Positions 1 to 12,496 of a stretch of DNA of 55,083 nt are shown one piece after another. The position numbers were made by a program, and so were the translations under genes. This stretch comes from a virus (taxonomy: Duplodnaviria; Heunggongvirae; Uroviricota; Caudoviricetes). The stretch lies in IMG/VR virus record IMGVR_UViG_2923307698_000002, positions 1 through 55,083 of that record, one strand, 5' to 3'. Numbering within the stretch: the stretch's first letter is position 1; every line of letters starts with the position of its first letter. The notes under the pieces were generated by a model. It ran no database searches. It saw only the letters and a program-made list of their open reading frames with translations, and had not been told where the DNA came from.

Positions 1-927
1 TCAGCTTTTCGCCAGAACGGTGACGGCCTTATCGAGTTTTTGCCATCCGCAATAGGTGATTGCCCTGAACGCTGTAGCGTCATTCTGGAAAAGGCTAACC
101 GTCCCTGATTCGGTTTTTATTACCGCCTCATCAGTTGGGGTTATAACTGTGGCTTCAACGTTAATAATCAGCTTTTGAGCGTCTATCAGCATCATGCGAT
201 CCGCCTGTTCGCTCACAATTACCGGTATTCTCAAAAGCTCTATCTGCCAGAACTCAGCATCAGTAAGCTGTAAGGCGTTTTCTACGGGCAAGATTAGCGA
301 CGACGTGGCAAGCGTGTTACCGTTCGCTATGTGCTTTTTGAAAAGCTCTATGAAGTTTTCGGCCTCATCAGCACCATTAAGCACGCCCTCAGGGGATACG
401 CCCGCCACCTCCTGGTCACTGGAAAGAAATTTTTTATCTATTTCTTTCACCGATTCCGATGTGATCAAGTCTCTGATCGCTGAATTGGTACAAGGGGTGC
501 TAAATTTGATTAGCTCGTTATTCAGCATCACAATAGCGCCAAGTTTGCACAGTTTTAGCGCACTTTCGTTTACTTCTCCCTCTTTGACAGGGATTTCTTC
601 GGCTTCTTTAAGCCATTTACTACCCTTGCCTGATATTGACTGCAATTTTGCGCCAAACGGAAGATTCAGCGCGCTGCTGATTAGCTTGCCTGGTACAGAC
701 TGCGAAAAAATATACTCGCCAAGCTCTCTTACTATCGGCTCTGCCACCAGCGACGGCATATTATCCGTAGTCATTCCGGCAACAATGGATTTTTCAAGAA
801 ATTTCGATACTGCCGGATCATTTTTTTTCGTCATTTCAATTGCGTCTGCATGGCTGAATTTACACGATGTAAGCACGCTGGCGGCGCGAACTGCCGACAC
901 GCCTTTCATGTTTTTAGAAATCATCAT
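1..927 (-). CDS. phage major capsid-like protein (HK97 fold family), satellite-encoded
   Basis: Complete 308-aa ORF; AGGAGG 6 nt upstream of ATG at 927; C-terminal region resembles HK97-family capsid C-terminus by eye; lies directly downstream of terS with no terL or portal between. Confidence 0.5.
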   Translation of the reverse strand: MMISKNMKGVSAVRAASVLTSCKFSHADAIEMTKKNDPAVSKFLEKSIVAGMTTDNMPSLVAEPIVRELGEYIFSQSVPGKLISSALNLPFGAKLQSISGKGSKWLKEAEEIPVKEGEVNESALKLCKLGAIVMLNNELIKFSTPCTNSAIRDLITSESVKEIDKKFLSSDQEVAGVSPEGVLNGADEAENFIELFKKHIANGNTLATSSLILPVENALQLTDAEFWQIELLRIPVIVSEQADRMMLIDAQKLIINVEATVITPTDEAVIKTESGTVSLFQNDATAFRAITYCGWQKLDKAVTVLAKS

Positions 928-1086
928 CTTCTTCCTCCTGGTAACATGGGGTTAGGGTTTCGTGAAAATATGGCATCAGAACAGCGGCAGCCTGTAACCG
1001 TATTTCTGTTGGCTGCTGCTTGTCGTTCATGATTTCCGTGAGTACATCAATAGGGTCTGTGATGTATTCGCTCATAGTTCGCTACC

Positions 1087-1575
1087 TCAGTGTTTTAAGC
1101 CAGTTGGTGGCTTAGGGATGGGGAACCGATTTGAGGAGACATTAGCGGCATTGAGTTTTTTAACCTCTTTTTTCCCAATGCTGCCGATCTTGCGGTGGGT
1201 GAACTGGGCCAGCTTAAACGCGGCATCTAAAGCCAGTTTTTGATCTGTGTCCATGTTGTCAATCAGTATCCTGCCCATTGCTTTGATGGGGTCGGGTAGG
1301 CCGTTATCCATCATCTCAATGGTGTTAATTGATGCCCGTTCCGGTGTAACTTTTTCGGTAACTTTCTTTGTAACTTTTTTCGGTTTTGTAACCTGAAAAG
1401 TTACATCAGAAGTTACAGCCTTAAGATACTTTTTCACCTCCGGATCATTGGATAGCTGCCAGCCTTTAACCCTTGCAGTCTTTTCGCTGTATCCCGCATG
1501 TATCGCGGCTTCCGTTGGATTTGTGCCCTTTGATAACGCATCAGCAAACCGCTTTTTTTTGGTCGTTAATGCCAT
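1087..1575 (-). CDS. terminase small subunit (P27-like family)
   Basis: Start placed at internal ATG 1575 (MALTTKKKRFADALSKG...) with GAGG RBS; the ORF track extends to 1713 but the upstream part lacks an RBS; N-terminal HTH-like motif typical of P27-type TerS. Confidence 0.75.
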   Translation of the reverse strand: MALTTKKKRFADALSKGTNPTEAAIHAGYSEKTARVKGWQLSNDPEVKKYLKAVTSDVTFQVTKPKKVTKKVTEKVTPERASINTIEMMDNGLPDPIKAMGRILIDNMDTDQKLALDAAFKLAQFTHRKIGSIGKKEVKKLNAANVSSNRFPIPKPPTGLKH

Positions 1576-1702
1576 GCAAAAACCTCGTTTTGAGGGGGTG
1601 TAACTTTTCGTGTAACTTTTTTGAAAAGCAAAATTTTCTATGAATGAGACGGGGGGCGGTGTCCAGGGCGATCGACTTTCCGGCCGGAACACTCCCCCCC
1701 TG

Positions 1703-1864
1703 TCATTGCTCACCGAGTAACGAGATCAGGCCTTCAACTTCATCACTCAGCTTGTTTATTCGTGTCTCAAGCTCTGCGATCTTTTCCATCAATGGCGCTA
1801 TGGTGTCTCTTGTTTCCTCGCCAATGGCTTTAATGATGCTTGCCTCGCGTTCTGTGATAGCCAT
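1703..1864 (-). CDS. small coiled-coil hypothetical protein (53 aa)
   Basis: ORF below the 60-aa track cutoff, found by hand translation (MAITEREASIIKAIGEE...); ATG lies 3 nt after the upstream gene stop (TAAACAATG), suggesting coupling. Confidence 0.3.
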   Translation of the reverse strand: MAITEREASIIKAIGEETRDTIAPLMEKIAELETRINKLSDEVEGLISLLGEQ

Positions 1865-1867
1865 TGT

Positions 1868-2062
1868 TTACGCCTCACTTGTTGCAATGCCCAGGCGTTC
1901 GCGTAACAGTACGCGCGCAAGATGCCCTATTGTTGGTGTTGCCGCCCTGCCGTAGATACCTGATTCATTCATCCGGCGCACAATATCGAACTGCAACTTT
2001 TTAAGCTCGTTAAGGATTTCATGATCAATCATCACGGTAGCGCTTTGCTTTATCTCTTCCAC
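1868..2062 (-). CDS. hypothetical protein (64 aa)
   Basis: GTG start at 2062 preceded by AGGAGA at 7 nt; sits between replication and packaging modules. Confidence 0.4.
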   Translation of the reverse strand: MEEIKQSATVMIDHEILNELKKLQFDIVRRMNESGIYGRAATPTIGHLARVLLRERLGIATSEA

Positions 2063-2149
2063 TTTGTTTTCTCCTGATACTTATCATTGCATAACCAGTA
2101 TTTTCGATAGATTATCATTAATTAACCATCTTTGAAGATATATGAGATC

Positions 2150-2175
2150 GAAAAAAAGCCGGATTGCTCCGGCTA
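2150..2175 (-). terminator. rho-independent terminator after rep operon
   Basis: Hairpin GCCGG-attgct-CCGGC followed by T-run on the minus strand, downstream of the 81-aa gene. Confidence 0.45.
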
Positions 2176-2192
2176 TGTGCTCACTTCTTCGG

Positions 2193-2438
2193 TTATTCTC
2201 CAGCGCTTTTAACGTTGATGGTTGTTACCTGTTCCGCTTCGGCAATCTCCCGTTCTGTCAGCGTGGCAAAGTTTGCCGCCGCGGTGGTCATGAATGCGCT
2301 TATCAGTTCGGGATGCTCCTTCGCGTATCCTTCCCCCGCGTGGCGGTCTATCGTTCTGATTGCCACCTTTAAGGAAAGCTCTGTCATGTCTAACGCTTTA
2401 TATTTTGGCGCTGTCTTATCTCTGGTTTTTCTGTTCAT
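2193..2438 (-). CDS. hypothetical protein (81 aa), last gene of rep operon
   Basis: ORF immediately downstream of the iteron array; start uncertain (ATG 2438 or internal ATG 2387). Confidence 0.4.
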   Translation of the reverse strand: MNRKTRDKTAPKYKALDMTELSLKVAIRTIDRHAGEGYAKEHPELISAFMTTAAANFATLTEREIAEAEQVTTINVKSAGE

Positions 2439-2640
2439 TCCCCACTACTCCCCACTTTTGCTCCCCACTTTTTGAAATTACCCACCGTCTCCCCACCTCT
2501 TTTTTTTGTGATTCTAACGTTATGTTTTTCAATATGTTTTTTACTCCCCACTTTTTTGGGTATATACAGGTGGGAAAGTGGGTAATTATGTTTCAATTTT
2601 GTTAAATTCCCCACTCCCCCCACTTTTACTCCCCACTTTT
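2439..2640. repeat. iteron array, putative satellite replication origin
   Basis: At least 7 copies of TCCCCACT(TTT) in direct orientation plus an inverted copy (aggtgggaaagtggg) and an AT-rich tract, immediately 3' of the rep stop codon. Confidence 0.6.
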
Positions 2641-4040
2641 TACAGCGGGCGCACGTCATCACCGTCAATAACGATTACGCCATCATTTTCCAGCTTGTAC
2701 AGCCAGCGCCGGAAGTGCTTCATCTCATACCCCAGCTTTTTCATATCGTCGCGGAGAAGGGCGATAGTGCACGCCTCCCCGTGTGCTGTTCGTGTTCTGA
2801 TGCACTGCCATAGCGCGGCGTGATTCTCCGTCTTGTTCCCTGCCTCCTCGATGCGCTCCAGTTCAACGGGAGGGCGCGGCTTATCCACCACCACCAGCGA
2901 CGTGATTAACTCCCCGTCAGCGTCGGTAAAAAGCTCCACCACGCGTAAGTCATATGCTGCTTCTTTGAGTTCCTCCGCGTCCTTCATTTTGGTACATGAG
3001 ATAACCAGCGCTTCGCTGCCTGCGTCCTCCCTGCGTATCCGGTATTCGGCGTCCAGTGATGCACGAAATGCACTGGAACCACGCGCCCCCTTTGTTTCAT
3101 CCTTGCCGGAATGGTGAACCACCAGCACCGTTGCCCCTGTGCGCCGTTTCAGTTCGTCACACCCACGGATAAACGCCCCCATATCACGGGAATCATTTTC
3201 ATCATTGCCGCCAAAGCAGCGCGCCAGCGTATCCAGAATAATCATTCGAACCGGTTTACCCGTTTCCCGTTCCACCTGACGGGCAGCGATAACCATTTCC
3301 TCAACATCAAGCGGGGCAGCCGGAAAGATGGGACGGTTTACCAGATACAGATTTTTCACCTGCTCACCGTGCACAACCTCCCAGGCTTTTACACGACGCG
3401 GAACGCCGATACCGCCTTCACCAACCACATAGAGAACAGCGCCATGCGCCACCCTGCGGCCTCCCCACTGGCGGCCCGTGGAAACGTGACACGCCCACGA
3501 ACCCGCAAGGAACGATTTATATGAACCGCTCGCCCCGTATATGCTGCACAGCGATACCGCCGGAATAATCCCCTTAACCACGTAATCAAGTTGTGTGTCG
3601 TATCCGGCAGATCCCACGCTCATTGGTAGCGTGGTTTTTCGCTGGTGGTGTTTTTCTTCCCCTGGCTTTTTCCCCCGCTCCCGTTCCAGATATTCGCGCC
3701 AGTTCTCCCGCTTCTGGCTGTGCATCCCTTCGGGGTAATAATTCGCATCAGTTACACCCGCCGCCGCCAGCTTGTGCGCAATGGCATTAATATTTGATGG
3801 CCTGATGTGGCCTGCCTTGTACAGCCGGACACAATAGCGCCCCTCGTCGATGATTCTCAGGTCTGCCAGTTCATCCAGTTGATCATCAGCCAGCACAACG
3901 GGAGGCACATTATCGCCAGCCAGTCGCCCGTCCTGTTCCTGCCACTGTTTCGCATGTGCCCAGGCATCACTACCCGCAAAAATAATGACTTCGGTCATCT
4001 TGTCGTAAGGCTGTTTTTTTAAGTTCGGTGCGCTTTTCAT
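2640..4040 (-). CDS. replication initiator/helicase, RecA-like P-loop ATPase
   Basis: 466 aa; Walker A YGASGSYKS and Walker B-like MIILD; ATGA overlap with upstream gene; iterons directly downstream. Confidence 0.75.
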   Translation of the reverse strand: MKSAPNLKKQPYDKMTEVIIFAGSDAWAHAKQWQEQDGRLAGDNVPPVVLADDQLDELADLRIIDEGRYCVRLYKAGHIRPSNINAIAHKLAAAGVTDANYYPEGMHSQKRENWREYLERERGKKPGEEKHHQRKTTLPMSVGSAGYDTQLDYVVKGIIPAVSLCSIYGASGSYKSFLAGSWACHVSTGRQWGGRRVAHGAVLYVVGEGGIGVPRRVKAWEVVHGEQVKNLYLVNRPIFPAAPLDVEEMVIAARQVERETGKPVRMIILDTLARCFGGNDENDSRDMGAFIRGCDELKRRTGATVLVVHHSGKDETKGARGSSAFRASLDAEYRIRREDAGSEALVISCTKMKDAEELKEAAYDLRVVELFTDADGELITSLVVVDKPRPPVELERIEEAGNKTENHAALWQCIRTRTAHGEACTIALLRDDMKKLGYEMKHFRRWLYKLENDGVIVIDGDDVRPL

Positions 4041-4336
4041 TTCTTGCCCCTGAATCCGTTAATCATGGTTTTCAGCTTCTGGATGTTTGCCCGTGCCCTG
4101 GCGTTGCTGGTGGGCACGTTATGCGGCGCGGTCTGTACCAGAGAAAAATCACGCCGGAACTGATAAACAGGCATCACGCAATCATATTCGTAACCTTCAC
4201 GGCGGTAAGTTACGCACCGTCCCGCCACGCCCTTAATCATTACCGTGCCGCCGTACTGGTCGCGGTAAATATCACCGCGCGTAAATTTAGGGTGAGTGTT
4301 GCCACTGGCAGTTAAGCCAGAATATTTAAGTTTCAT
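4037..4336 (-). CDS. hypothetical protein (99 aa)
   Basis: Stop overlaps rep start (ATGA); part of minus-strand operon. Confidence 0.4.
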   Translation of the reverse strand: MKLKYSGLTASGNTHPKFTRGDIYRDQYGGTVMIKGVAGRCVTYRREGYEYDCVMPVYQFRRDFSLVQTAPHNVPTSNARARANIQKLKTMINGFRGKK

Positions 4337-4341
4337 TATTT

Positions 4342-4575
4342 TTATTCTCCGGTGTGCTGTTCGTTATATCTGTCGTGCAATAGATCTATTTCTTGCAGTT
4401 CCATTATTACAGGCTCAAGAAGCGTTATTAATGCTGTGGCAATTCTTGATTTTTGTTTGTCGCGTTCATTGTCGCCAAGTGTTTCAAGCCATATGCGCAA
4501 TATTTCGTACATACCTTCAGCGTAAGCAAGGGCACTAAATGCGCGGTCTATTGTTTCGTGGTAAATATCACGCAT
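4342..4575 (-). CDS. hypothetical protein (77 aa)
   Basis: ORF in tight operon arrangement. Confidence 0.4.
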   Translation of the reverse strand: MRDIYHETIDRAFSALAYAEGMYEILRIWLETLGDNERDKQKSRIATALITLLEPVIMELQEIDLLHDRYNEQHTGE

Positions 4576-4576
4576 A

Positions 4577-4798
4577 TTAATCCCCGTCCGTTGTTTTTCT
4601 TAAAACAGCTTCTGTCACGAAATCAGCATAGTTAGCGGCAATATCAAGAATATTTAGCCCTGTATCTCTGTGCTCATCAGTGCAAAGAAAGAAAAAAGCC
4701 ACCCGCATAATTTCAGATATTGACGAAAGCGCATCAGCCGCATCATCAGGAACGCCGGAAAATTCTTGTTTCAGGGAATTAAAACGATCATCACGCAT
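4577..4798 (-). CDS. hypothetical protein (73 aa)
   Basis: ATG at 4798 is 2 nt downstream of a G8 homopolymer on the coding strand. Confidence 0.35.
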   Translation of the reverse strand: MRDDRFNSLKQEFSGVPDDAADALSSISEIMRVAFFFLCTDEHRDTGLNILDIAANYADFVTEAVLRKTTDGD

Positions 4799-5013
4799 AA
4801 CCCCCCCCCATTTTCACAATCAGCAACAAGAATATTTTTAGCGTCATTCAGCGACCGCGTTGCGATGTATCGGATACATTCCAGGGCGAACTGTGTCCGG
4901 TCTTTCTGTTCTTCTCCCTGCGCAAGCTCTGCAGTGCATTCAATATCGATAAGCGCGTGCATCAGCGTAGTGAGCGCGGCGGCTGCTGCGTCCGGTGTGG
5001 TTTTATTGCACAT
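4771..5013 (-). CDS. hypothetical protein (80 aa)
   Basis: Start placed at ATG 5013 with AGGAGG at 6-7 nt; 3' end overlaps the next gene across the G8 tract. Confidence 0.35.
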   Translation of the reverse strand: MCNKTTPDAAAAALTTLMHALIDIECTAELAQGEEQKDRTQFALECIRYIATRSLNDAKNILVADCENGGGLCVMIVLIP

Positions 5014-5203
5014 GGCACACCTCCTGACGAATACGGGCGGCGAATACAGCAACACAACCGGACGGGCAACGGCTACGCGCTTCGCGTTCCGTCCAGGCGG
5101 TTACGTGGATGATTTGAGATTCTCCGGCACTCAGTGCCAGAAAACGCCACACAAAGGCCGTTTGTGTGTGTACAAGGTGTGGTATATGATTTACGGCAAC
5201 CAT
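5003..5203 (-). CDS. hypothetical protein (66 aa), first gene of leftward operon
   Basis: ATG 5203 with AGGAG at 5 nt. Confidence 0.3.
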   Translation of the reverse strand: MVAVNHIPHLVHTQTAFVWRFLALSAGESQIIHVTAWTEREARSRCPSGCVAVFAARIRQEVCHVQ

Positions 5204-5387
5204 AACGGCTCCTAGTTTACGTTGTTGGTTAGACGCCCCGTATGTGTTCCCGCACTGCGGGGTGTTGTTATTTGGTGCATCGCACCATCTGTTTTTAACC
5301 TATCAGCAAGTGAATCGCACTTCAAGCCTTTTTCTCTGAATTTTTTTTGTGTATACTGAATCGCACCAACTTAGAGAGGATTCTGTA
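5204..5387. promoter_or_regulatory. divergent promoter/operator region of the satellite
   Basis: Three copies of TG(A/C)ATCGCAC at 5279-5285, 5314-5320 and 5360-5366; palindrome CCGCAcTGCGG near 5251; TATACT -10-like element; between divergent operons. Confidence 0.45.
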
Positions 5388-5567
5388 ATGGCAACAGGTT
5401 CAACAAATAATAAGTCGCAACAGTTAAATGCCAGATTCCCGCATGATGTTGTTGCAGACTTAGAAAAAAATTTAGATGAAGGTGAAAGCAAAGCGCAATT
5501 TATAGTTACTGCCGTTAAAGGCGAAATCAAACGCCGCCAGCGCCGCAAGGCCAAAGAGCAGGAGTAA
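5388..5567 (+). CDS. ribbon-helix-helix (CopG-like) regulator
   Basis: ATG 5388 after AGAGAGGA; N-terminal beta-strand/helix pattern (QQLNARFPHDVVADLEK...AQFIVTAVKGEI) typical of RHH proteins; basic C-tail. Confidence 0.5.
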   Translation: MATGSTNNKSQQLNARFPHDVVADLEKNLDEGESKAQFIVTAVKGEIKRRQRRKAKEQE

Positions 5568-5609
5568 CCATCACCAGCGCCGTGGTGTGAGGTACTACGG
5601 CGCATTGCT

Positions 5610-5798
5610 ATGCAGGACAACACAATGACCGATAAAGAATTGACCAAAACATTATCACCGGCACGGAAAAGACGGCGCAGAAAGATAGAGCATGAATCAG
5701 AAAGATTCGCACCATGTGCTTTTGCCCTTGAGCAATTCCTTAAAGAGTACAGGGAAAAGCGCTCATTGCAGGTATGGCAACGAACTGAACCAGACTGA
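5610..5798 (+). CDS. hypothetical basic protein (62 aa)
   Basis: ORF downstream of the RHH gene; start may be the internal ATG at 5625. Confidence 0.3.
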   Translation: MQDNTMTDKELTKTLSPARKRRRRKIEHESERFAPCAFALEQFLKEYREKRSLQVWQRTEPD

Positions 5799-5885
5799 TT
5801 GCATTGCCCACCAGCCTGATAGCGGCTATCATCCCCGTGCTTATGTTTGGGATCACATACACATAAGGCGCAGCGGGTTAATTGT

Positions 5886-5912
5886 TCAGAAAGGCGGCTC
5901 CATATCGGGGCC
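5886..5912 (+). terminator. rho-independent terminator
   Basis: GC hairpin (gcggctcc...ggggccgc) followed by T6; lies between convergent genes. Confidence 0.4.
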
Positions 5913-5946
5913 GCTTTTTTCGTGTTTGTCATATCTGTGATACCCG

Positions 5947-6153
5947 TTAAGCAGCCGTTCCGCGTGCTTCCTCTTCGCGTTCTTTCTGCCAGGACAACAC
6001 ATCATCCTCATACCATCCGCGACGGCGTAAACCAACGCGAAAACCCTGCGGAAATTCTCCGGCGTTGATCATGCTTTGCAGCGTGCTGTCTGCCTTGATG
6101 TGGATAATTTTTTTTACTTCCTGGCGAAAGATAATTTTTCTGATTGCTTCCAT
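5947..6153 (-). CDS. alpA: AlpA-family transcriptional regulator/excision activator
   Basis: 68 aa; pattern IIRQ-EV...L...AGEFP...G.RR.GW.EDDV..W matches AlpA/Vis-type MerR-like HTH as recalled. Confidence 0.7.
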   Translation of the reverse strand: MEAIRKIIFRQEVKKIIHIKADSTLQSMINAGEFPQGFRVGLRRRGWYEDDVLSWQKEREEEARGTAA

Positions 6154-6282
6154 CGTGATTTACCTTGTGAATCCGGTGTATTCCGGTGACAAATACGGTA
6201 AATCATCGGATATGGGTAAAAACAGTTCCCACCGTTTTTAAACGGTATACACCGTTTTTTATATTGATGATTTGAAATGGAA

Positions 6283-6310
6283 TTATAAAAAAAGCGGCAT
6301 TTCTGCCGCT
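6283..6310 (-). terminator. rho-independent terminator
   Basis: 7-bp stem AGCGGCA/TGCCGCT with T-run on the minus strand, downstream of the 83-aa gene. Confidence 0.45.
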
Positions 6311-6320
6311 TCCAGGATTG

Positions 6321-6572
6321 TTACCGCCATTTTTTGGGCCTGCCTCCGATCTTCATAGATGCCGGACGTACGACCTTATCAATACTTACCGCCAGATTTC
6401 TGGAAGCGCCACGGGATACCAGAAAATCTACTACCTGTTTTTTTGATGGGGCCGTCGTTCTGTCCTCCGGATCGTAGGTTGACCAAAATTCATGCTGAAC
6501 CATCAGGGCCAGTTGCAGCCCGTCGCAATTGCATCTGATATTTTTTTGCATCTTAACGGTTTCATGTTTCAC
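6321..6572 (-). CDS. hypothetical protein (83 aa)
   Basis: ORF between alpA and int; basic C-terminus. Confidence 0.4.
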   Translation of the reverse strand: MKHETVKMQKNIRCNCDGLQLALMVQHEFWSTYDPEDRTTAPSKKQVVDFLVSRGASRNLAVSIDKVVRPASMKIGGRPKKWR

Positions 6573-6649
6573 GGCCTTGTCGTTAAATTTGATGCAATTA
6601 TACGACGGTTTTACATGGTTTTCGTAGTTTTTACTGGTTTTCTGTACAG

Positions 6650-7891
6650 CTACACGGCTCGGATACCCCTTTTACCACTGGCGAGGGTTACGCCCGTCGC
6701 CGCAGCCTCGACAAATTCGCCCCACCAGCGCATCAGCACGATGCGTTTTTCTATGTAGTTGCTCCGGTTGTATGCCCGTCTAACTTCGTTGGTGTCGACG
6801 TGGGCAAGTGCCGCCTCTATTACGTCCGGCTCGAATCCTTCCTCGTTCGCTGCTGTGCTGAATATGGCGCGTAATCCATGAGACACCAGCACGCCAGCGA
6901 ATCCCATACGCCGCAATGCTGCGTTAGCTGTCTGGCTGTTCATCGGCTGCTGTGGGTCTTTCAGACTTGGGAAAACGTAATTGCGGTGGTGGCTGATTGG
7001 TTTCATGGCCTCCAGCACCGCCATAGCCTGACCGGAAAGCGGGATAACGTGATCCCTGCGCATCTTCATGCGTCCGGCAGGTATCGTCCATTGCTTCGCG
7101 TCCAGGTTGATTTCATCCCACCGCGTTGATGACGCTTCGGCGGGACGGGTTACGGTCAGTAACTGCCATTCAATCAGTAATCTGGTCTGCCGTTCTGTTG
7201 CCGATACTGATAAAGCCTGCATAAGCTCGGGCAGCTGTTCGGGGCGGATTGTTGGCATATGTTTTTTTACAGGTGAGGGAAACGCCTTACGCACATTCAT
7301 AGCCGGATTGGCATCAATCAGCCCACTGTTGGCGGCGTAATCCATTACCTCATTAACGCGCTGTAAAACCCGCTTGAGTGTTTCCAGGTTGCCGCGCTCC
7401 TTGATGGGGGTAAGCACTTCAACGAACCTTCGGGCGGTGAGGGTATCTATTGGCGTGTTGCCGATGAACGGGAATACATATTTATCCAGCGAACGCCAGA
7501 TGTCTTTAATCGTGTTGGGGGCCAGATTCTGGCTGATTTTCACCTGGTACCATGCCGCCGCCACATTTTCGAACGTGTTCCCTTGTCTTCGGGCCTCTGT
7601 CTCTCTTTTTTGCCTCTCGTGGTCCTGTGGGTCAGTTCCGGCACTGATTAACGTCCTGTACTCGCTACGGCGTTTTCTGGCATCAGCCAGGGAAACATCT
7701 TCAAGCGATCCAAAACTCAGCAATATTCTTTTTTTGTCCGATGGTCGGTAGTAGGAAAATCTCCAGAGTTTTGATCCAGACGGTTTGACCAGGAGAAAAA
7801 GCCCTCCGCCGTCCTGCAGGGTGTACTCCTTTTGCGCTGGTCTGGCTGCTTTGATCTGCACTGTGGTTAATGGGTGTGTTTTTCTCGCCAT
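6650..7891 (-). CDS. int: tyrosine integrase, P4-like
   Basis: ATG at 7891 (MARKTHPLT...); N-terminal arm-binding-like domain and C-terminal catalytic domain with conserved R...H.LR...Y pattern; adjacent to tRNA fragment. Confidence 0.9.
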   Translation of the reverse strand: MARKTHPLTTVQIKAARPAQKEYTLQDGGGLFLLVKPSGSKLWRFSYYRPSDKKRILLSFGSLEDVSLADARKRRSEYRTLISAGTDPQDHERQKRETEARRQGNTFENVAAAWYQVKISQNLAPNTIKDIWRSLDKYVFPFIGNTPIDTLTARRFVEVLTPIKERGNLETLKRVLQRVNEVMDYAANSGLIDANPAMNVRKAFPSPVKKHMPTIRPEQLPELMQALSVSATERQTRLLIEWQLLTVTRPAEASSTRWDEINLDAKQWTIPAGRMKMRRDHVIPLSGQAMAVLEAMKPISHHRNYVFPSLKDPQQPMNSQTANAALRRMGFAGVLVSHGLRAIFSTAANEEGFEPDVIEAALAHVDTNEVRRAYNRSNYIEKRIVLMRWWGEFVEAAATGVTLASGKRGIRAV

Positions 7892-7925
7892 ATGTCTATG
7901 ATTCCACACGAAAAAACAGGGTTTT

Positions 7926-7975
7926 AGTTATACGGCTTTAGTTATACGCCAGCCCGTATAACTAAACGTATAACT
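7926..7975. promoter_or_regulatory. putative integrase arm-type binding sites
   Basis: Four copies of a 9-bp motif: AGTTATACG at 7926-7934 and 7940-7948, inverted CGTATAACT at 7955-7963 and 7967-7975, between int start and the att core. Confidence 0.4.
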
Positions 7976-8109
7976 AAAAAATCCGGCTGATAGCTTATAA
8001 ATCCGGTGATGTTCGGTGACTAAAAAACATAAAAAAACCCGCCAATCAAGTGATTAGCGGGTTATCCCTGTCTTATCCGGTGCTTTCCGGTGATATCCGG
8101 TGGGCGATT

Positions 8110-8155
8110 TGGTCGGCACGAGAGGATTTGAACCTCCGACCCCCGACACCCCATG
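8110..8155 (-). other. attachment-site core: 3' 46 nt of tRNA-Pro(GGG)-like gene (partial tRNA, no 5' half)
   Basis: Minus strand reads CATGGGGTGTCGGGGGTCGGAGGTTCAAATCCTCTCGTGCCGACCA: anticodon loop with GGG, variable loop, T-arm GGAGG/TTCAAAT/CCTCT, acceptor and CCA; upstream sequence cannot form acceptor or D arms. Confidence 0.65.
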
Positions 8156-8370
8156 TCACCGCGCCTGAAACGCTGGAGACCGCGCCATTGCTGGGCTGGC
8201 AGGGTGTTTCACTGTGTGCGCAAACAGTGCATAATTCGCAAAATTCACGCTATATACATCAATGAGTTAAGAGAGATTTTTCCCCACTCCTAAATGGTCA
8301 GTTTTTGGAGCATTACTATATTAATAGGTTCCGTCTATAGCACTTTTTGATTTGCTTCTAATATGCTTTT

Positions 8371-8397
8371 CTGTGGATAAGATTTAGTTATCCACAG
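8371..8397. promoter_or_regulatory. inverted pair of DnaA-box-like sequences
   Basis: CTGTGGATAA-gatttag-TTATCCACAG; TTATCCACA matches the DnaA box consensus; about 200 bp upstream of the 255-aa gene. Confidence 0.3.
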
Positions 8398-8593
8398 ACT
8401 TATCTCCTAAGTTTCCGAGCGGCTACATGTTTTTTGTTGATTGTTTTATGTTTGGCGTAAAGTCAACAATTACTTCGCTTTTTGACCATTTTAGCCCATT
8501 GGAAATTACGATCATCTTCATGTAACCTTCTAAAACTTACTAAGATTGCAGAAGTTAAAGCAACATAGCTCGTAGTTTCTTAAAGGTGATTTA

Positions 8594-9361
8594 ATGCCAC
8601 AGCCGGCGCTAAAAGCGAACGAAATCAGCAGTGAATTAATCGATATTCTTGCGGCTCGGAATACGATATCCGAAATGCAATATTTTCGTTATATCAGAGA
8701 TATAGAAAAGTTGCGCGACAGCGCATCTGAGGACTATCTCAAAGCGTTGGCTAATGGTGCTTTTGGGCGTAAAGATACTGCAGTTGCATTCTTTGAAGAA
8801 GCATTGAAGCATAACAACCTGATCATTGCTCAAAATTATGTAGTTTATCTCAACGATTACGGCAGCTTCCGTGAAGTTGAACAAGTGGTAAATCGATTAG
8901 TTGAACGTTATAACTCCCCTACGATGCTGTCCCATGCATGGGAAGCTAACTTGTTCTTGGGGCGTATTGACAAAGCGCTCTACTATGCTGAGAGATTGAT
9001 AAGTATGGTAGATGAAAAGGAGGCTGAATTGGTTAAGCACCTCGCAGCCACAGCACTGGCCCAATCCACGACCTTCAAAAGTGCAACTGGAATTACTGAT
9101 GAAGAACTACAGGATATTGCAAACCGCATAGTGGATATCATGGCTGACCATAAAGTTAGTCCTGTTGCTATGTCTTTCTGCTCTATCCCTGAAGAGCGTA
9201 CGTCATCATATGTCATGGCAGTTAATACTGAAGATTCTGATGTTCTCTCTGATATGAACTTGGATATAGCATTTTCTCTTGCAGAAAATGAAAGTTTGAT
9301 TGGAAAACCCTTCAGCGTATGGTTTGAAGGGCGTTTGGAGGAACCTGCGCGTGCCAGTTAA
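8594..9361 (+). CDS. hypothetical protein (255 aa), first gene of two-gene cargo operon
   Basis: ATG 8594 after AAGGTGA; AT-rich codon usage unlike the flanking phage DNA; no family recognised. Confidence 0.55.
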   Translation: MPQPALKANEISSELIDILAARNTISEMQYFRYIRDIEKLRDSASEDYLKALANGAFGRKDTAVAFFEEALKHNNLIIAQNYVVYLNDYGSFREVEQVVNRLVERYNSPTMLSHAWEANLFLGRIDKALYYAERLISMVDEKEAELVKHLAATALAQSTTFKSATGITDEELQDIANRIVDIMADHKVSPVAMSFCSIPEERTSSYVMAVNTEDSDVLSDMNLDIAFSLAENESLIGKPFSVWFEGRLEEPARAS

Positions 9362-11311: not shown

Positions 11312-12496
11312 CTAACCGGTTTTAATTTCTCCATGAGGGACAACAATCCAATCTATATGATTTTTAGTATAAATTTTAGTAGATTTCGCATCGCTATGTG
11401 CCATTCGTCCCTGCGGATCAATCCCTTGTTTATCAAATAGGTGAGCTGCCAAAGCTCTTATTTCATGGAATGTAGGTCTTTGTTCCATTGCTAGATGATT
11501 GCATAGTCCGAGTTTGTCTCGCACGGAAGAGAATGACCGACTCAAATAATCTGGTGCAACTTGAGTTGGGTGCGAAACCTCTTTACTGCGTTTAACATGC
11601 CGTTCTGGGATTCTATGAACGACAAAGGGACTGGCCACATTGTCACGGCTATTGTCAATTATCCGTTTCAATTCTTCACCAATTGGTATTGCAACATGTG
11701 ATGCCTCCTTTTTTTGTACTTTTTGCCTATGGATGTATAGTGTACCATATATGCCATTTTGTGGTTGTTCGAACCAAACACATCCACATAAACCGTCTTT
11801 AGGTTCGCGAATTGAGTAACGGATTCGCGATACTTCGAGTCGTGCATGTGTAGTCTGCAATGCTAGGTCCATTGCTGTTCTTAACCATGGTGCAGCGGCC
11901 TGCCTGATAGCTATAAAATGCTCGAGTGACAGGCGCCGTCTTTTCTTCTCATCAGTCCTACGCATTTTTTTTCTGATGGCCGGGTTATCCTGCATTAGTG
12001 ATTCATCGACCGCATAAGAGAACAACTTTTTAAGAAAGCTGACCTTTCTGTTCTGCACATTTGCGGATGCGCTGGCATGATATTTGTTGATGTAGGCATT
12101 AACGTGTTCAAGTTCGATATCGCATGCCGGAACATTTACGAAAAACGCTTTTACGCGTAGAGCGTCATTTTTCCAGTCATCTAAGGTACTCTGGGAAGGT
12201 CGTTCGTCTTCGATAATTCTGGCCATTATGTGATCGACATGTTCAGCAAATGGTTTTGCTTCTCCGGTGACCCCGCCAGATTCTCTAATAAGATTATCCA
12301 CTGATGGGTATAATTCTGATCGCATCCTCAGGTTGTACTCTCTGGCGATTGCAACGGCTATTGCCCGATCCTTACCTATATTTTTCTTTTTTCCGGTAAT
12401 AAGTGTGAATTTATAAACACCTCGATCTTTATCAAAAACCAGATAATCAGGAAGATGTCTGTATTCTTTTTTACGTGGCCTTGCCGCCATGGTCAT
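11312..12496 (-). CDS. int: tyrosine integrase, lambda-type
   Basis: 394 aa; N-terminal arm-binding region and C-terminal catalytic domain; ATGA overlap with xis. Confidence 0.9.
   Translation of the reverse strand: MTMAARPRKKEYRHLPDYLVFDKDRGVYKFTLITGKKKNIGKDRAIAVAIAREYNLRMRSELYPSVDNLIRESGGVTGEAKPFAEHVDHIMARIIEDERPSQSTLDDWKNDALRVKAFFVNVPACDIELEHVNAYINKYHASASANVQNRKVSFLKKLFSYAVDESLMQDNPAIRKKMRRTDEKKRRRLSLEHFIAIRQAAAPWLRTAMDLALQTTHARLEVSRIRYSIREPKDGLCGCVWFEQPQNGIYGTLYIHRQKVQKKEASHVAIPIGEELKRIIDNSRDNVASPFVVHRIPERHVKRSKEVSHPTQVAPDYLSRSFSSVRDKLGLCNHLAMEQRPTFHEIRALAAHLFDKQGIDPQGRMAHSDAKSTKIYTKNHIDWIVVPHGEIKTG

What the first reader, a model, noticed from the sequence alone, without database searches (positions are those of the whole stretch)
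2439..2640. Iteron origin immediately 3' of the satellite rep gene
At least seven TCCCCACT(TTT) repeats, one inverted copy and an AT-rich block begin at the rep stop codon, the same rep-ori arrangement seen in SaPI/PICI elements. The first downstream ORF starts right at the array boundary, so its translation start may be embedded in the origin.
Basis: seen in the sequence. Interest (0 to 1): 0.4.

Follow-up and report, generated by a model that had tools for sequence, protein, structure and literature searches.

The report
Iteron replication origin of an E. coli phage satellite
The repeat cluster just after the satellite's replication gene is real and is almost certainly the origin that this gene's own protein binds; this layout is already known for such satellites, but relatives show that one amino acid of the protein matches one base of the repeat.

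Summary
Window 2439-2639 holds 9 direct and 2 inverted copies of an AAAGTGGGGA-type repeat, written in the sense of rep. Seven are exact TCCCCAC, against 10 in the other 54.9 kb. The array runs from the rep stop codon to the ATG of an 81-aa ORF.

The element is an ~8 kb E. coli PICI satellite. Its Rep, DUF4222 protein and ORF81 are identical to those of EcCI11128, catalogued by Fillol-Salom et al. 2018. That paper already describes PICI origins as iteron sets flanking an AT-rich region just 3' of rep.

New here:
- Rep is a RepA/DnaB-like (AAA_25) helicase with a predicted C-terminal winged helix.
- About 200 bp of origin geometry is conserved in 68 distinct origins across Enterobacterales: outer array, AT block, inverted/direct dyad around TATATA, AT block, outer array.
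- The residue just before the recognition helix predicts core base 4. His or Lys goes with G, Asn with A, Ser with C, across 72 distinct C-terminal domains.
- One natural pair differs in the winged helix only by His/Asn, and all its iterons switch between GTGGGG and GTGAGG.

The iterons follow Rep, not DUF4222, ORF81 or TerS. Replication itself is untested. Verdict: a new member of a known kind, of moderate interest.

The parts
2640..4040 (-). rep: a 466-aa initiator-helicase. Residues 1-~125 form an N-terminal domain with a Toprim-like fold. Residues 147-315 are the AAA_25 RepA/DnaB-like ATPase. Residues ~395-466 are a winged helix.
   Evidence: Pfam AAA_25 E 2.6e-43. The best PDB sequence match is RSF1010 RepA 1g8y, E 0.013. 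The protein is identical to WP_000833625.1, the Rep of EcCI11128.
2643..2858 (-). The part of rep encoding the C-terminal winged-helix domain, the predicted iteron reader. The His442 codon is at 2715-2717.
2608..2639 (-). Outer iteron set A: three direct copies at 2630-2639, 2617-2626 and 2608-2617, starting one base after the rep stop codon.
   Evidence: Two to four copies sit at the same place in relatives.
2583..2607 (.). AT-rich block 1.
   Evidence: This 25-mer has dG -24.8 kcal/mol against a satellite mean of -33.9 (sd 3.2). It is the fifth least stable 25-mer in 8.2 kb.
2545..2584 (.). Central dyad: two inverted iteron copies (cores 2578-2582 and 2570-2574), the palindrome GTATATAC (2560-2567), and one direct iteron (2545-2554).
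   Evidence: An inverted and a direct iteron separated by exactly 23 nt (25 nt in E. coli), with a TATATA/TATACA centre, appear in 59 distinct sequences from many genera.
2497..2544 (.). AT-rich block 2, the spacer between the central dyad and set B.
   Evidence: GC is 0.21 over 47 nt. In relatives the spacer is 47-58 nt with a median GC of 0.29. The 25-mer at 2520 has dG -25.35.
2439..2499 (-). Outer iteron set B: five direct copies at 2490-2499, about 2479-2488 (degenerate), 2462-2471, 2449-2458 and 2439-2448. The last two also supply the only Shine-Dalgarno-like purine runs before ORF81.
   Evidence: Three to five copies sit at the same place in relatives.
2193..2438 (-). ORF81, a conserved small protein of unknown function (phrog_1231). 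Its ATG abuts the last iteron.
   Evidence: phrog_1231 E 5.8e-48. Homologues keep the N-terminal reading frame. In relatives it is followed by ssb.
2157..2174 (-). Intrinsic-terminator-like hairpin that closes the rep-ori-ORF81 transcription unit.
   Evidence: A 7-bp stem (5 GC pairs) followed by T7, on the - strand. No sigma-70-like promoter was found in 1900-2900.
4037..4336 (-). DUF4222 gene. Its stop codon overlaps the rep start, so it is a partner in the replication module. It is not the iteron reader.
   Evidence: Pfam DUF4222 E 2.1e-23. Its sequence identity does not follow iteron type.

Best explanation
Window 2439-2639 is the replication origin of a small E. coli phage-inducible chromosomal island (PICI) of the EcCI11128 type. 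The Rep protein encoded just upstream is a self-loading initiator-helicase. It has a RepA/DnaB-like RecA-fold ATPase core and a C-terminal winged helix that reads the iteron 5'-AAAGTG-G-GGA. Residue His442, at the N-terminal edge of the recognition helix, specifies the fourth base of the GTGGGG core. Rep is proposed to occupy the two outer arrays (3 and 5 direct copies) and the central head-to-head pair. Two oppositely oriented hexamers would assemble around the GTATATAC centre and open the flanking AT-rich blocks. Because this Rep lacks the zinc-ribbon and catalytic Toprim primase module that its ~700-aa relatives carry, priming is presumably left to host DnaG, with host Pol III doing the synthesis. 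The origin lies inside the rep-ori-ORF81 transcript, and the last iterons double as the ribosome-binding region of ORF81. Shown here: the repeats, their conservation, the protein-DNA covariation, and the predicted folds. Inferred: binding, double-hexamer loading, the melting site, priming by the host, and replication itself.
For: (1) The repeats are far beyond chance.
(2) Rep is a helicase of the AAA_25/RSF1010-RepA type.
(3) The rep-ori module has published standing. The literature places PICI and SaPI origins immediately 3' of rep, as iteron sets flanking AT-rich DNA read by a C-terminal winged helix (PMC6092414; PMC9371898). The Rep, DUF4222 protein and ORF81 are identical to those of EcCI11128 in that paper's Table S1.
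(4) The same ~200 bp geometry follows Rep homologues in 68 distinct origins from Escherichia, Salmonella-like, Xenorhabdus, Pantoea, Kosakonia, Pectobacterium, Serratia, Morganella and others.
(5) All copies within an origin change in concert. The residue before the F-x-R-W-L helix predicts core base 4 over 72 distinct C-terminal domains: His gives G in 10 of 11, Asn gives A in 25 of 25, Ser gives C in 7 of 7, and Lys gives G in 27 of 29.
(6) A prediction made from this rule held for four E. coli recombinants fetched afterwards.
(7) L097 and L098 have winged helices that differ only by His/Asn, and their iterons are GTGGGG and GTGAGG respectively.
(8) The C-terminal domain models as a winged helix.
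(9) The iterons do not follow DUF4222, ORF81 or the packaging module.
(10) A 16,971-bp circular Klebsiella record is a cf-PICI with a Rep homologue and a cognate GTGCGG origin. This is consistent with an episomal form.
Against: There is no experimental evidence for this Rep family. The only Gram-negative PICI replicon tested (EcCICFT073) uses a different helicase type. The covariation shows a Rep-iteron interaction, not that the site fires as an origin. Loci are phylogenetically related, so the 72-row table overstates the number of independent events. About five independent switches are evident. Rep's Walker A motif is atypical (GASGSYKS), so ATPase competence is assumed, not shown. This copy of the island carries pseudogenes (ash and icd fragments) and lacks the ssb found in relatives, so it may be partly defective. 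The CTD model is of moderate confidence (pLDDT 77.6), built from a shallow alignment.
Confidence: 0.8

Rival explanations
1. The array is a Rep-binding (or other) operator that controls transcription or translation of ORF81 and the downstream genes, and is not an origin. Replication would start elsewhere or depend on the helper phage.
For: The array lies inside the rep-ORF81 transcription unit. No promoter or terminator separates the two genes, and the last iterons overlap the ribosome-binding region of ORF81. The covariation shows binding, not initiation.
Against: Eleven sites, a strictly spaced inverted pair around TATATA and two AT-rich blocks make up origin architecture. The same arrangement was shown to be the origin in SaPIs and EcCICFT073 (PMC9371898, PMC6092414). 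No other iteron cluster exists in the satellite. A regulatory side effect is compatible with the origin reading rather than opposed to it.
Confidence: 0.07
2. The repeats are the packaging recognition site (pac or cos) for the satellite's small terminase, encoded about 0.9 kb downstream.
For: TerS proteins often recognise repeated motifs near their own gene. terS (1087-1575) lies on the same strand, downstream.
Against: The array and its geometry stay glued to rep in elements with unrelated packaging modules. These include a Terminase_2 TerS here, a different TerS placed far away in O157 (L002), and HNH/P27-TerS/TerL cf-PICIs (L003, L094). The repeat sequence tracks a Rep residue. Sibling islands with other replicases have unrelated repeats at the same spot.
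Confidence: 0.02
3. It is a genuine origin by descent but inert in this copy: a relic in a decaying island that no longer replicates.
For: This island has ash and icd pseudogenes and lacks ssb and PerC, which relatives carry. It sits in tandem with a prophage at a hybrid att site without an intact tRNA in the window.
Against: rep is intact and identical to the protein in many genomes. The 2 kb rep-ori-ORF81 stretch is at least 99% identical in 159 complete E. coli genomes. All architectural elements of the origin are intact, with 4 perfect 10-mers.
Confidence: 0.08
4. It is a chance or low-complexity repeat with no function.
For: None beyond the C- and T-rich composition of the region.
Against: Seven of 17 exact heptamers fall within 200 of 55,083 bases, and 0 of 100 shuffles reached the observed total. 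The array is conserved across genera with concerted sequence changes.
Confidence: 0.01

Closest known systems
Gram-negative PICI replicons (EcCICFT073 pri-rep-ori; Fillol-Salom et al. 2018, ISME J, PMC6092414)
   Same: The satellite class and gene order are the same (int, alpA-like, rep, ori, packaging genes). The origin lies immediately 3' of rep as two iteron sets flanking AT-rich DNA. The Rep, DUF4222 protein and ORF81 here are identical to those of EcCI11128, listed in that paper's Table S1.
   Different: The tested element uses a primase/D5-type (SF3) Pri-Rep. This one uses an AAA_25 RepA/DnaB-like helicase without a recognisable primase. This origin itself has not been tested. The central inverted pair around TATATA and the residue-base rule are not described in the text I could read.
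SaPI Rep-ori (Rep1, PriRep5; Qiao et al. 2022, NAR, PMC9371898, and work cited there)
   Same: Both are self-loading helicase-initiators with NTD-ATPase-CTD order and a C-terminal winged helix that reads penta- or hexanucleotide iterons. Six to twelve iterons lie directly downstream of rep, around an AT-rich centre, with some iterons in opposite orientation.
   Different: SaPI Reps are AAA+ SF3 or SF6 (MCM-like) helicases with 3'-5' polarity. This Rep has a RecA-fold RepA/DnaB-like (SF4-type) core, for which 5'-3' polarity is expected from RSF1010 RepA (established knowledge, not tested here). There is no sequence similarity.
RSF1010/IncQ RepA helicase (PDB 1g8y)
   Same: It is the closest solved structure to the ATPase core (E 0.013, residues 148-320), and both belong to Pfam AAA_25.
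   Different: In IncQ plasmids a separate protein, RepC, binds the iterons, and RepB' primes at ssi sites. Here the helicase carries its own winged helix and the origin has a different layout.
Phage P4 alpha protein with ori/crr
   Same: It is also an E. coli satellite, and one polypeptide combines helicase and C-terminal origin binding on short repeated sites. phrog_864, 'DNA primase', matches Rep residues 3-122.
   Different: P4 alpha is a primase plus SF3 helicase and needs a second repeat cluster (crr) at a distance. No second cluster exists here.
T7 gp4 / Twinkle-type primase-helicases
   Different: gp4 and Twinkle have no origin-binding winged helix. The window's NTD lacks the zinc ribbon, matches no Toprim profile and shows no DxD motif.
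Classical iteron plasmids (pPS10 RepA, R6K pi, RK2 TrfA)
   Same: They have direct repeats bound by winged-helix domains next to an AT-rich unwinding element.
   Different: Those initiators are not helicases. They rely on DnaA boxes and on DnaB/DnaC loading. No DnaA box (at most 1 mismatch) lies in 2439-2640.

Membership tests
PICI/SaPI-type rep-ori module | The origin lies immediately 3' of the replication initiator gene. | tested here: met
   The first iteron starts one base after the rep stop codon. The same holds in all relatives examined.
PICI/SaPI-type rep-ori module | Two sets of short iterons flank AT-rich DNA, with some copies in opposite orientation. | tested here: met
   There are 3 + 1 + 5 direct and 2 inverted copies, with AT blocks at 2583-2607 and 2497-2544.
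PICI/SaPI-type rep-ori module | The initiator is a helicase with a C-terminal winged helix that recognises the iterons. | tested here: met
   AAA_25 helicase core. The CTD is predicted to be a winged helix. Recognition is inferred from residue-base covariation, not from binding assays.
PICI/SaPI-type rep-ori module | rep plus ori drives autonomous replication, and Rep binds its cognate ori specifically. | not testable with these tools
   Support is indirect only: a circular 17-kb cf-PICI record carries a homologous module.
Gram-negative PICI (satellite) | An island of about 8-12 kb with int, an AlpA-type regulator, a replication module and packaging or interference genes, transcribed in one direction and integrated at a specific att site. 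| tested here: met
   int 6650-7909, HTH/AlpA 5947-6153, rep, terS 1087-1575 and capsid 1-927 are all on the - strand. The att core, the 3' half of tRNA-Pro, is at 8110-8155. The module proteins are identical to those of EcCI11128.
Gram-negative PICI (satellite) | Induction and packaging by a helper phage. | not testable with these tools
A lambdoid prophage lies in tandem, but a helper role is not shown.
RSF1010 RepA / DnaB-like (SF4-type) hexameric helicases | A RecA-fold ATPase with Walker A, Walker B and an arginine finger, matching AAA_25. | tested here: inconclusive
   The profile match is strong and the best PDB hit is 1g8y. However, Walker A reads GASGSYKS, with Tyr in place of the usual Gly. 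This is invariant in the family. Hexamer formation and polarity are not testable here.
DnaG/T7-type primase (Toprim) | A zinc ribbon plus a Toprim domain with a catalytic Glu and a DxD motif. | tested here: not met
DnaA-dependent iteron plasmid origins | DnaA boxes next to the iterons, and a non-helicase WH1-WH2 initiator. | tested here: not met
   No TTATCCACA with at most 1 mismatch lies in 2439-2640. The initiator is a helicase.

The most novel reading that the evidence does not exclude
A single residue at the N-terminal edge of the Rep recognition helix (His or Lys, Asn, Ser) sets a single base of every iteron (G, A, C). On this reading, RepA-type satellite replicons across Enterobacterales fall into orthogonal specificity classes that arise by one amino-acid change plus concerted change of about 10 sites. 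This would be a simple, re-programmable initiator-origin code. It could explain how several related satellites coexist in one genome, and how modules are swapped among PICIs and cf-PICIs.
Probability: 0.5. Interest if true: 0.5.

Novelty: new member of a known kind. Interest (0 to 1): 0.35.

Why it matters
The finding assigns a function to a 200-bp non-coding stretch present in hundreds of complete E. coli genomes: 584 of 5,426 carry at least 80% of the rep-ori-ORF81 stretch. It extends the PICI/SaPI origin design of a self-loading helicase with a winged helix, plus iterons 3' of rep, to a third helicase class (RecA-fold, RepA/DnaB-like). It also yields a concrete test. Swapping His442 for Asn should retarget Rep from GTGGGG to GTGAGG origins. 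If that holds, it would give orthogonal, minimal replicons for enterobacteria and a way to predict incompatibility among co-resident satellites. As a discovery it is incremental, because the arrangement itself is already published.

Tried and rejected
- Packaging-site reading: rejected, because the array follows rep across unrelated packaging modules.
- DUF4222 or ORF81 as the iteron reader: rejected. The DUF4222 proteins of L005 and L006 are 95% identical although their iterons are unrelated. Those of the window and L097 are 50% identical although the iteron is the same. ORF81 homologues remain closely similar next to unrelated iterons.
- DnaA-dependent origin: no DnaA box in the region.
- Promoter inside the origin: none found by the consensus scan.
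- Known RNA family: nothing in 1-9000 except one sub-threshold chance hit outside the region.
- Coding potential of ORFs overlapping the array (2360-2605 on +, 2435-2668 on -): rejected, because spacer lengths differ by non-multiples of 3 among close relatives (47, 48 and 58 nt).
- Sequence-level link between the NTD and Toprim: hhalign found none, so only the fold resemblance stands.
- NTD homologue search: it returned mostly truncated E. coli and Shigella fragments and added little.
- Literature searches for this Rep family's origin, for EcCI11128 in main texts, and for a residue-base rule: nothing found. Figure 2a of PMC6092414 is not held, so I cannot tell whether this exact origin was drawn there.

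Full report
**Observation**

On the + strand, exact TCCCCAC occurs seven times between 2439 and 2636. The whole 55,083-base window holds 17 copies on both strands. Shuffles gave a mean of 6.3, and 0 of 100 reached 17. All four perfect copies of the 10-mer AAAGTGGGGA in the window lie here.

Read in the sense of the flanking genes (the - strand), the stretch runs as follows:
- the rep stop codon TAA (2642-2640);
- three direct iterons (set A, 2639-2608);
- an AT-rich block (2607-2583);
- two inverted copies (cores 2582-2578 and 2574-2570);
- the palindrome GTATATAC (2567-2560);
- one direct iteron (2554-2545);
- a second AT-rich block (2544-2497, GC 0.21);
- five direct iterons (set B, 2499-2439);
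- the ATG of an 81-aa ORF (2438-2436).

The two AT blocks are among the seven least stable 25-mers of the 8.2 kb element. The only corrections are that there are two inverted copies and two AT blocks.

**Context**

All genes in window 1-8155 are on the - strand:
- integrase (6650-7909);
- an AlpA-like HTH gene (5947-6153);
- small ORFs;
- DUF4222 (4037-4336);
- a 466-aa AAA_25 protein annotated 'helicase RepA family' (2640-4040);
- the repeats;
- ORF81 (2193-2438);
- a terminator-like hairpin (2174-2157);
- two small ORFs;
- terS (1087-1575);
- a capsid gene (1-927).

The rep-ori stretch is 100% identical to E. coli E2865. In E2865 an island of the same gene order lies between yejO and tRNA-Pro. 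O111:H- strain 11128 carries identical Rep, DUF4222 and ORF81 proteins at the coordinates that Fillol-Salom et al. 2018 list as PICI EcCI11128.

That paper states that in Gram-negative PICIs the region immediately 3' of rep is the origin. [quoted passage not shown] For SaPIs, Qiao et al. 2022 summarise the same design. Six to twelve penta- or hexanucleotide iterons sit directly downstream of rep around an AT-rich centre, read by a winged helix in the C-terminal domain of a self-loading helicase.

**Is the array tied to Rep?**

I collected 80 loci encoding Rep homologues from one genome per species. I added E. coli relatives from complete genomes and from assemblies.

In 68 distinct origins the geometry repeats:
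- iterons start at the stop codon;
- an inverted and a direct iteron lie 46-71 nt downstream of it;
- these two are separated by exactly 23 nt (25 nt in the E. coli group; 21 nt in two origins), with a TATATA/TATACA centre;
- a 47-58 nt spacer of median GC 0.29 follows in most origins;
- a second array follows, ending about 175-200 nt from the stop codon.

The sequence of the repeat differs between lineages, and it changes in all copies at once, including the inverted ones. The forms seen are GTGGGG, GTGAGG, GTGCGG and GTGGGN.

Core base 4 is predicted by the residue just before the conserved F-x-R-W-L helix of Rep. Over 72 distinct C-terminal domains, His goes with G in 10 of 11, Asn with A in 25 of 25, Ser with C in 7 of 7, and Lys with G in 27 of 29.

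The rows are phylogenetically related, so I made predictions from the rule and then fetched E. coli recombinants:
- P0014 has a window-like C-terminus but Asn, and has GTGAG iterons.
- P0003 has an O157-like C-terminus but His, and has GTGGG iterons.
- P0039 and P0013 both have Asn. P0039 has GTGAG; P0013 has mostly GTGAG.
- L097 and L098 have identical final 81 residues except His447/Asn447. Their origins read GTGGGG and GTGAGG throughout.

Asn pairing with adenine and His or Lys pairing with guanine fits common protein-DNA contacts. That last point rests on established knowledge and was not tested here.

**Structure predictions**

The ATPase core matches AAA_25 (E 2.6e-43) and, weakly, RSF1010 RepA (1g8y, E 0.013). 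Relatives in Xenorhabdus and Pectobacterium are about 700 aa long, with a primase zinc ribbon and Toprim in front of the same core and winged helix.

The same N-terminal domain, together with DUF4222, is joined in sibling E. coli islands to D5-type and DUF927-type replicases.

**Rivals**

The iterons do not follow the neighbouring genes. Sibling islands keep closely similar ORF81 proteins, yet they have GGGTAGAGG or TAACCCGCA repeats next to their different replicases. DUF4222 is 95% identical between two islands with unrelated iterons, and only 50% identical between two islands with the same iteron.

The array also stays with rep in elements whose packaging modules are unrelated. That argues against a pac or cos site.

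No DnaA box, sigma-70-like promoter or known RNA family lies in the region.

A purely regulatory Rep operator cannot be excluded by computation. However, the architecture is that of an origin, and there is no other iteron cluster in the island.

**Mechanism proposed**

All steps here are inferred. Rep winged helices occupy eleven sites. Two hexamers assemble head-to-head on the central dyad and open GTATATAC and the flanking AT blocks. Helicase loading follows, then host priming and elongation.

The origin sits within the rep-ORF81 transcript, which ends at the hairpin at 2174-2157. The last two iterons provide the purine runs that can serve as the Shine-Dalgarno sequence of ORF81. In one relative (L091) the ATG lies 9 nt further on.

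**Novelty and verdict**

The kind of feature is already published, and this island is already catalogued. What I could not find in the library is a description of three things: this Rep family's origin, its conserved tripartite geometry, and the one-residue/one-base rule.

I rate the finding as a new member of a known kind, with interest 0.35. Confidence that it is the Rep-bound origin is 0.8.

Noticed in passing
window 8108-8155, with 8156-55083: Positions 8110-8155 are the 3' half of tRNA-Pro, the att core. ARAGORN finds no intact tRNA in the window. Satellite homology ends at 8155 and homology to a lambdoid prophage starts at 8108 (int at 11312-12496, yfdQ/yfdR-type genes, tail genes beyond 39 kb). 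The PICI and a prophage therefore sit in tandem at the same yejO/tRNA-Pro site. This is at odds with the statement in PMC6092414 that PICI att sites are never used by prophages. Whether this prophage is the helper is unknown.
   Followed up: partly
window 3636-4040 (-), Rep residues 1-135: The N-terminal domain of Rep, together with the upstream DUF4222 gene, is shared at about 77% DNA identity with sibling E. coli islands. Their replicases are D5/DUF5906-type or DUF927-type instead of AAA_25. So one N-terminal module is joined to three different helicase classes. Its predicted fold is Toprim-like, but the catalytic motifs are not evident.
   Followed up: partly
window 3516-3536 (-), Rep residues 169-175: The Walker A motif reads GASGSYKS, with Tyr where P-loops normally have Gly before the Lys. 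This is invariant in the four aligned E. coli relatives and is also present in the primase-fused Xenorhabdus and Pectobacterium Reps.
   Followed up: no
L088, L093 and L098, about 300 bp downstream of the rep stop codon: Some E. coli relatives carry a second copy of the central unit alone (inverted iteron, TATATA, direct iteron), after the main origin and in place of ORF81 and ssb.
   Followed up: no
L094 (CP018459.1, K. pneumoniae pKp_Goe_795-4, 16,971 bp, circular): This record, deposited as a plasmid, is a capsid-forming PICI. It has int, capsid, terminase and head-tail adaptor genes, plus a Rep homologue of the Ser/GTGCGG class with a complete cognate origin. It may be an episomal or excised satellite.
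   Followed up: partly
window 7921-7980: Two direct and two inverted copies of TAGTTATACG lie between the integrase start and the att core. They resemble the sequences listed for yejM-site PICIs in Table S1 of PMC6092414 and may be integrase arm-type or regulator sites.
   Followed up: no
window 2050-2174: A strong terminator-like hairpin (2174-2157, - strand) is followed by a 29-35% GC stretch (2050-2150). This marks the boundary between the replication unit and the small-ORF/terS/capsid unit. This island lacks the ssb and PerC genes that relatives carry here.
   Followed up: no
window 8372-8396: An inverted pair of perfect DnaA-box 9-mers (TGTGGATAA ... TTATCCACA), 7 nt apart, lies on the prophage side of the junction.
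   Followed up: no
L003, and proteins P0051 and P0104: L003's Rep has K-H-L-K-R-W-L instead of K-H-F-R-R-W-L, and its iterons keep GTGGG but have a variable sixth base. This hints at a second residue-base contact. P0051 and P0104 share the motif, but their origins were not examined.
   Followed up: no
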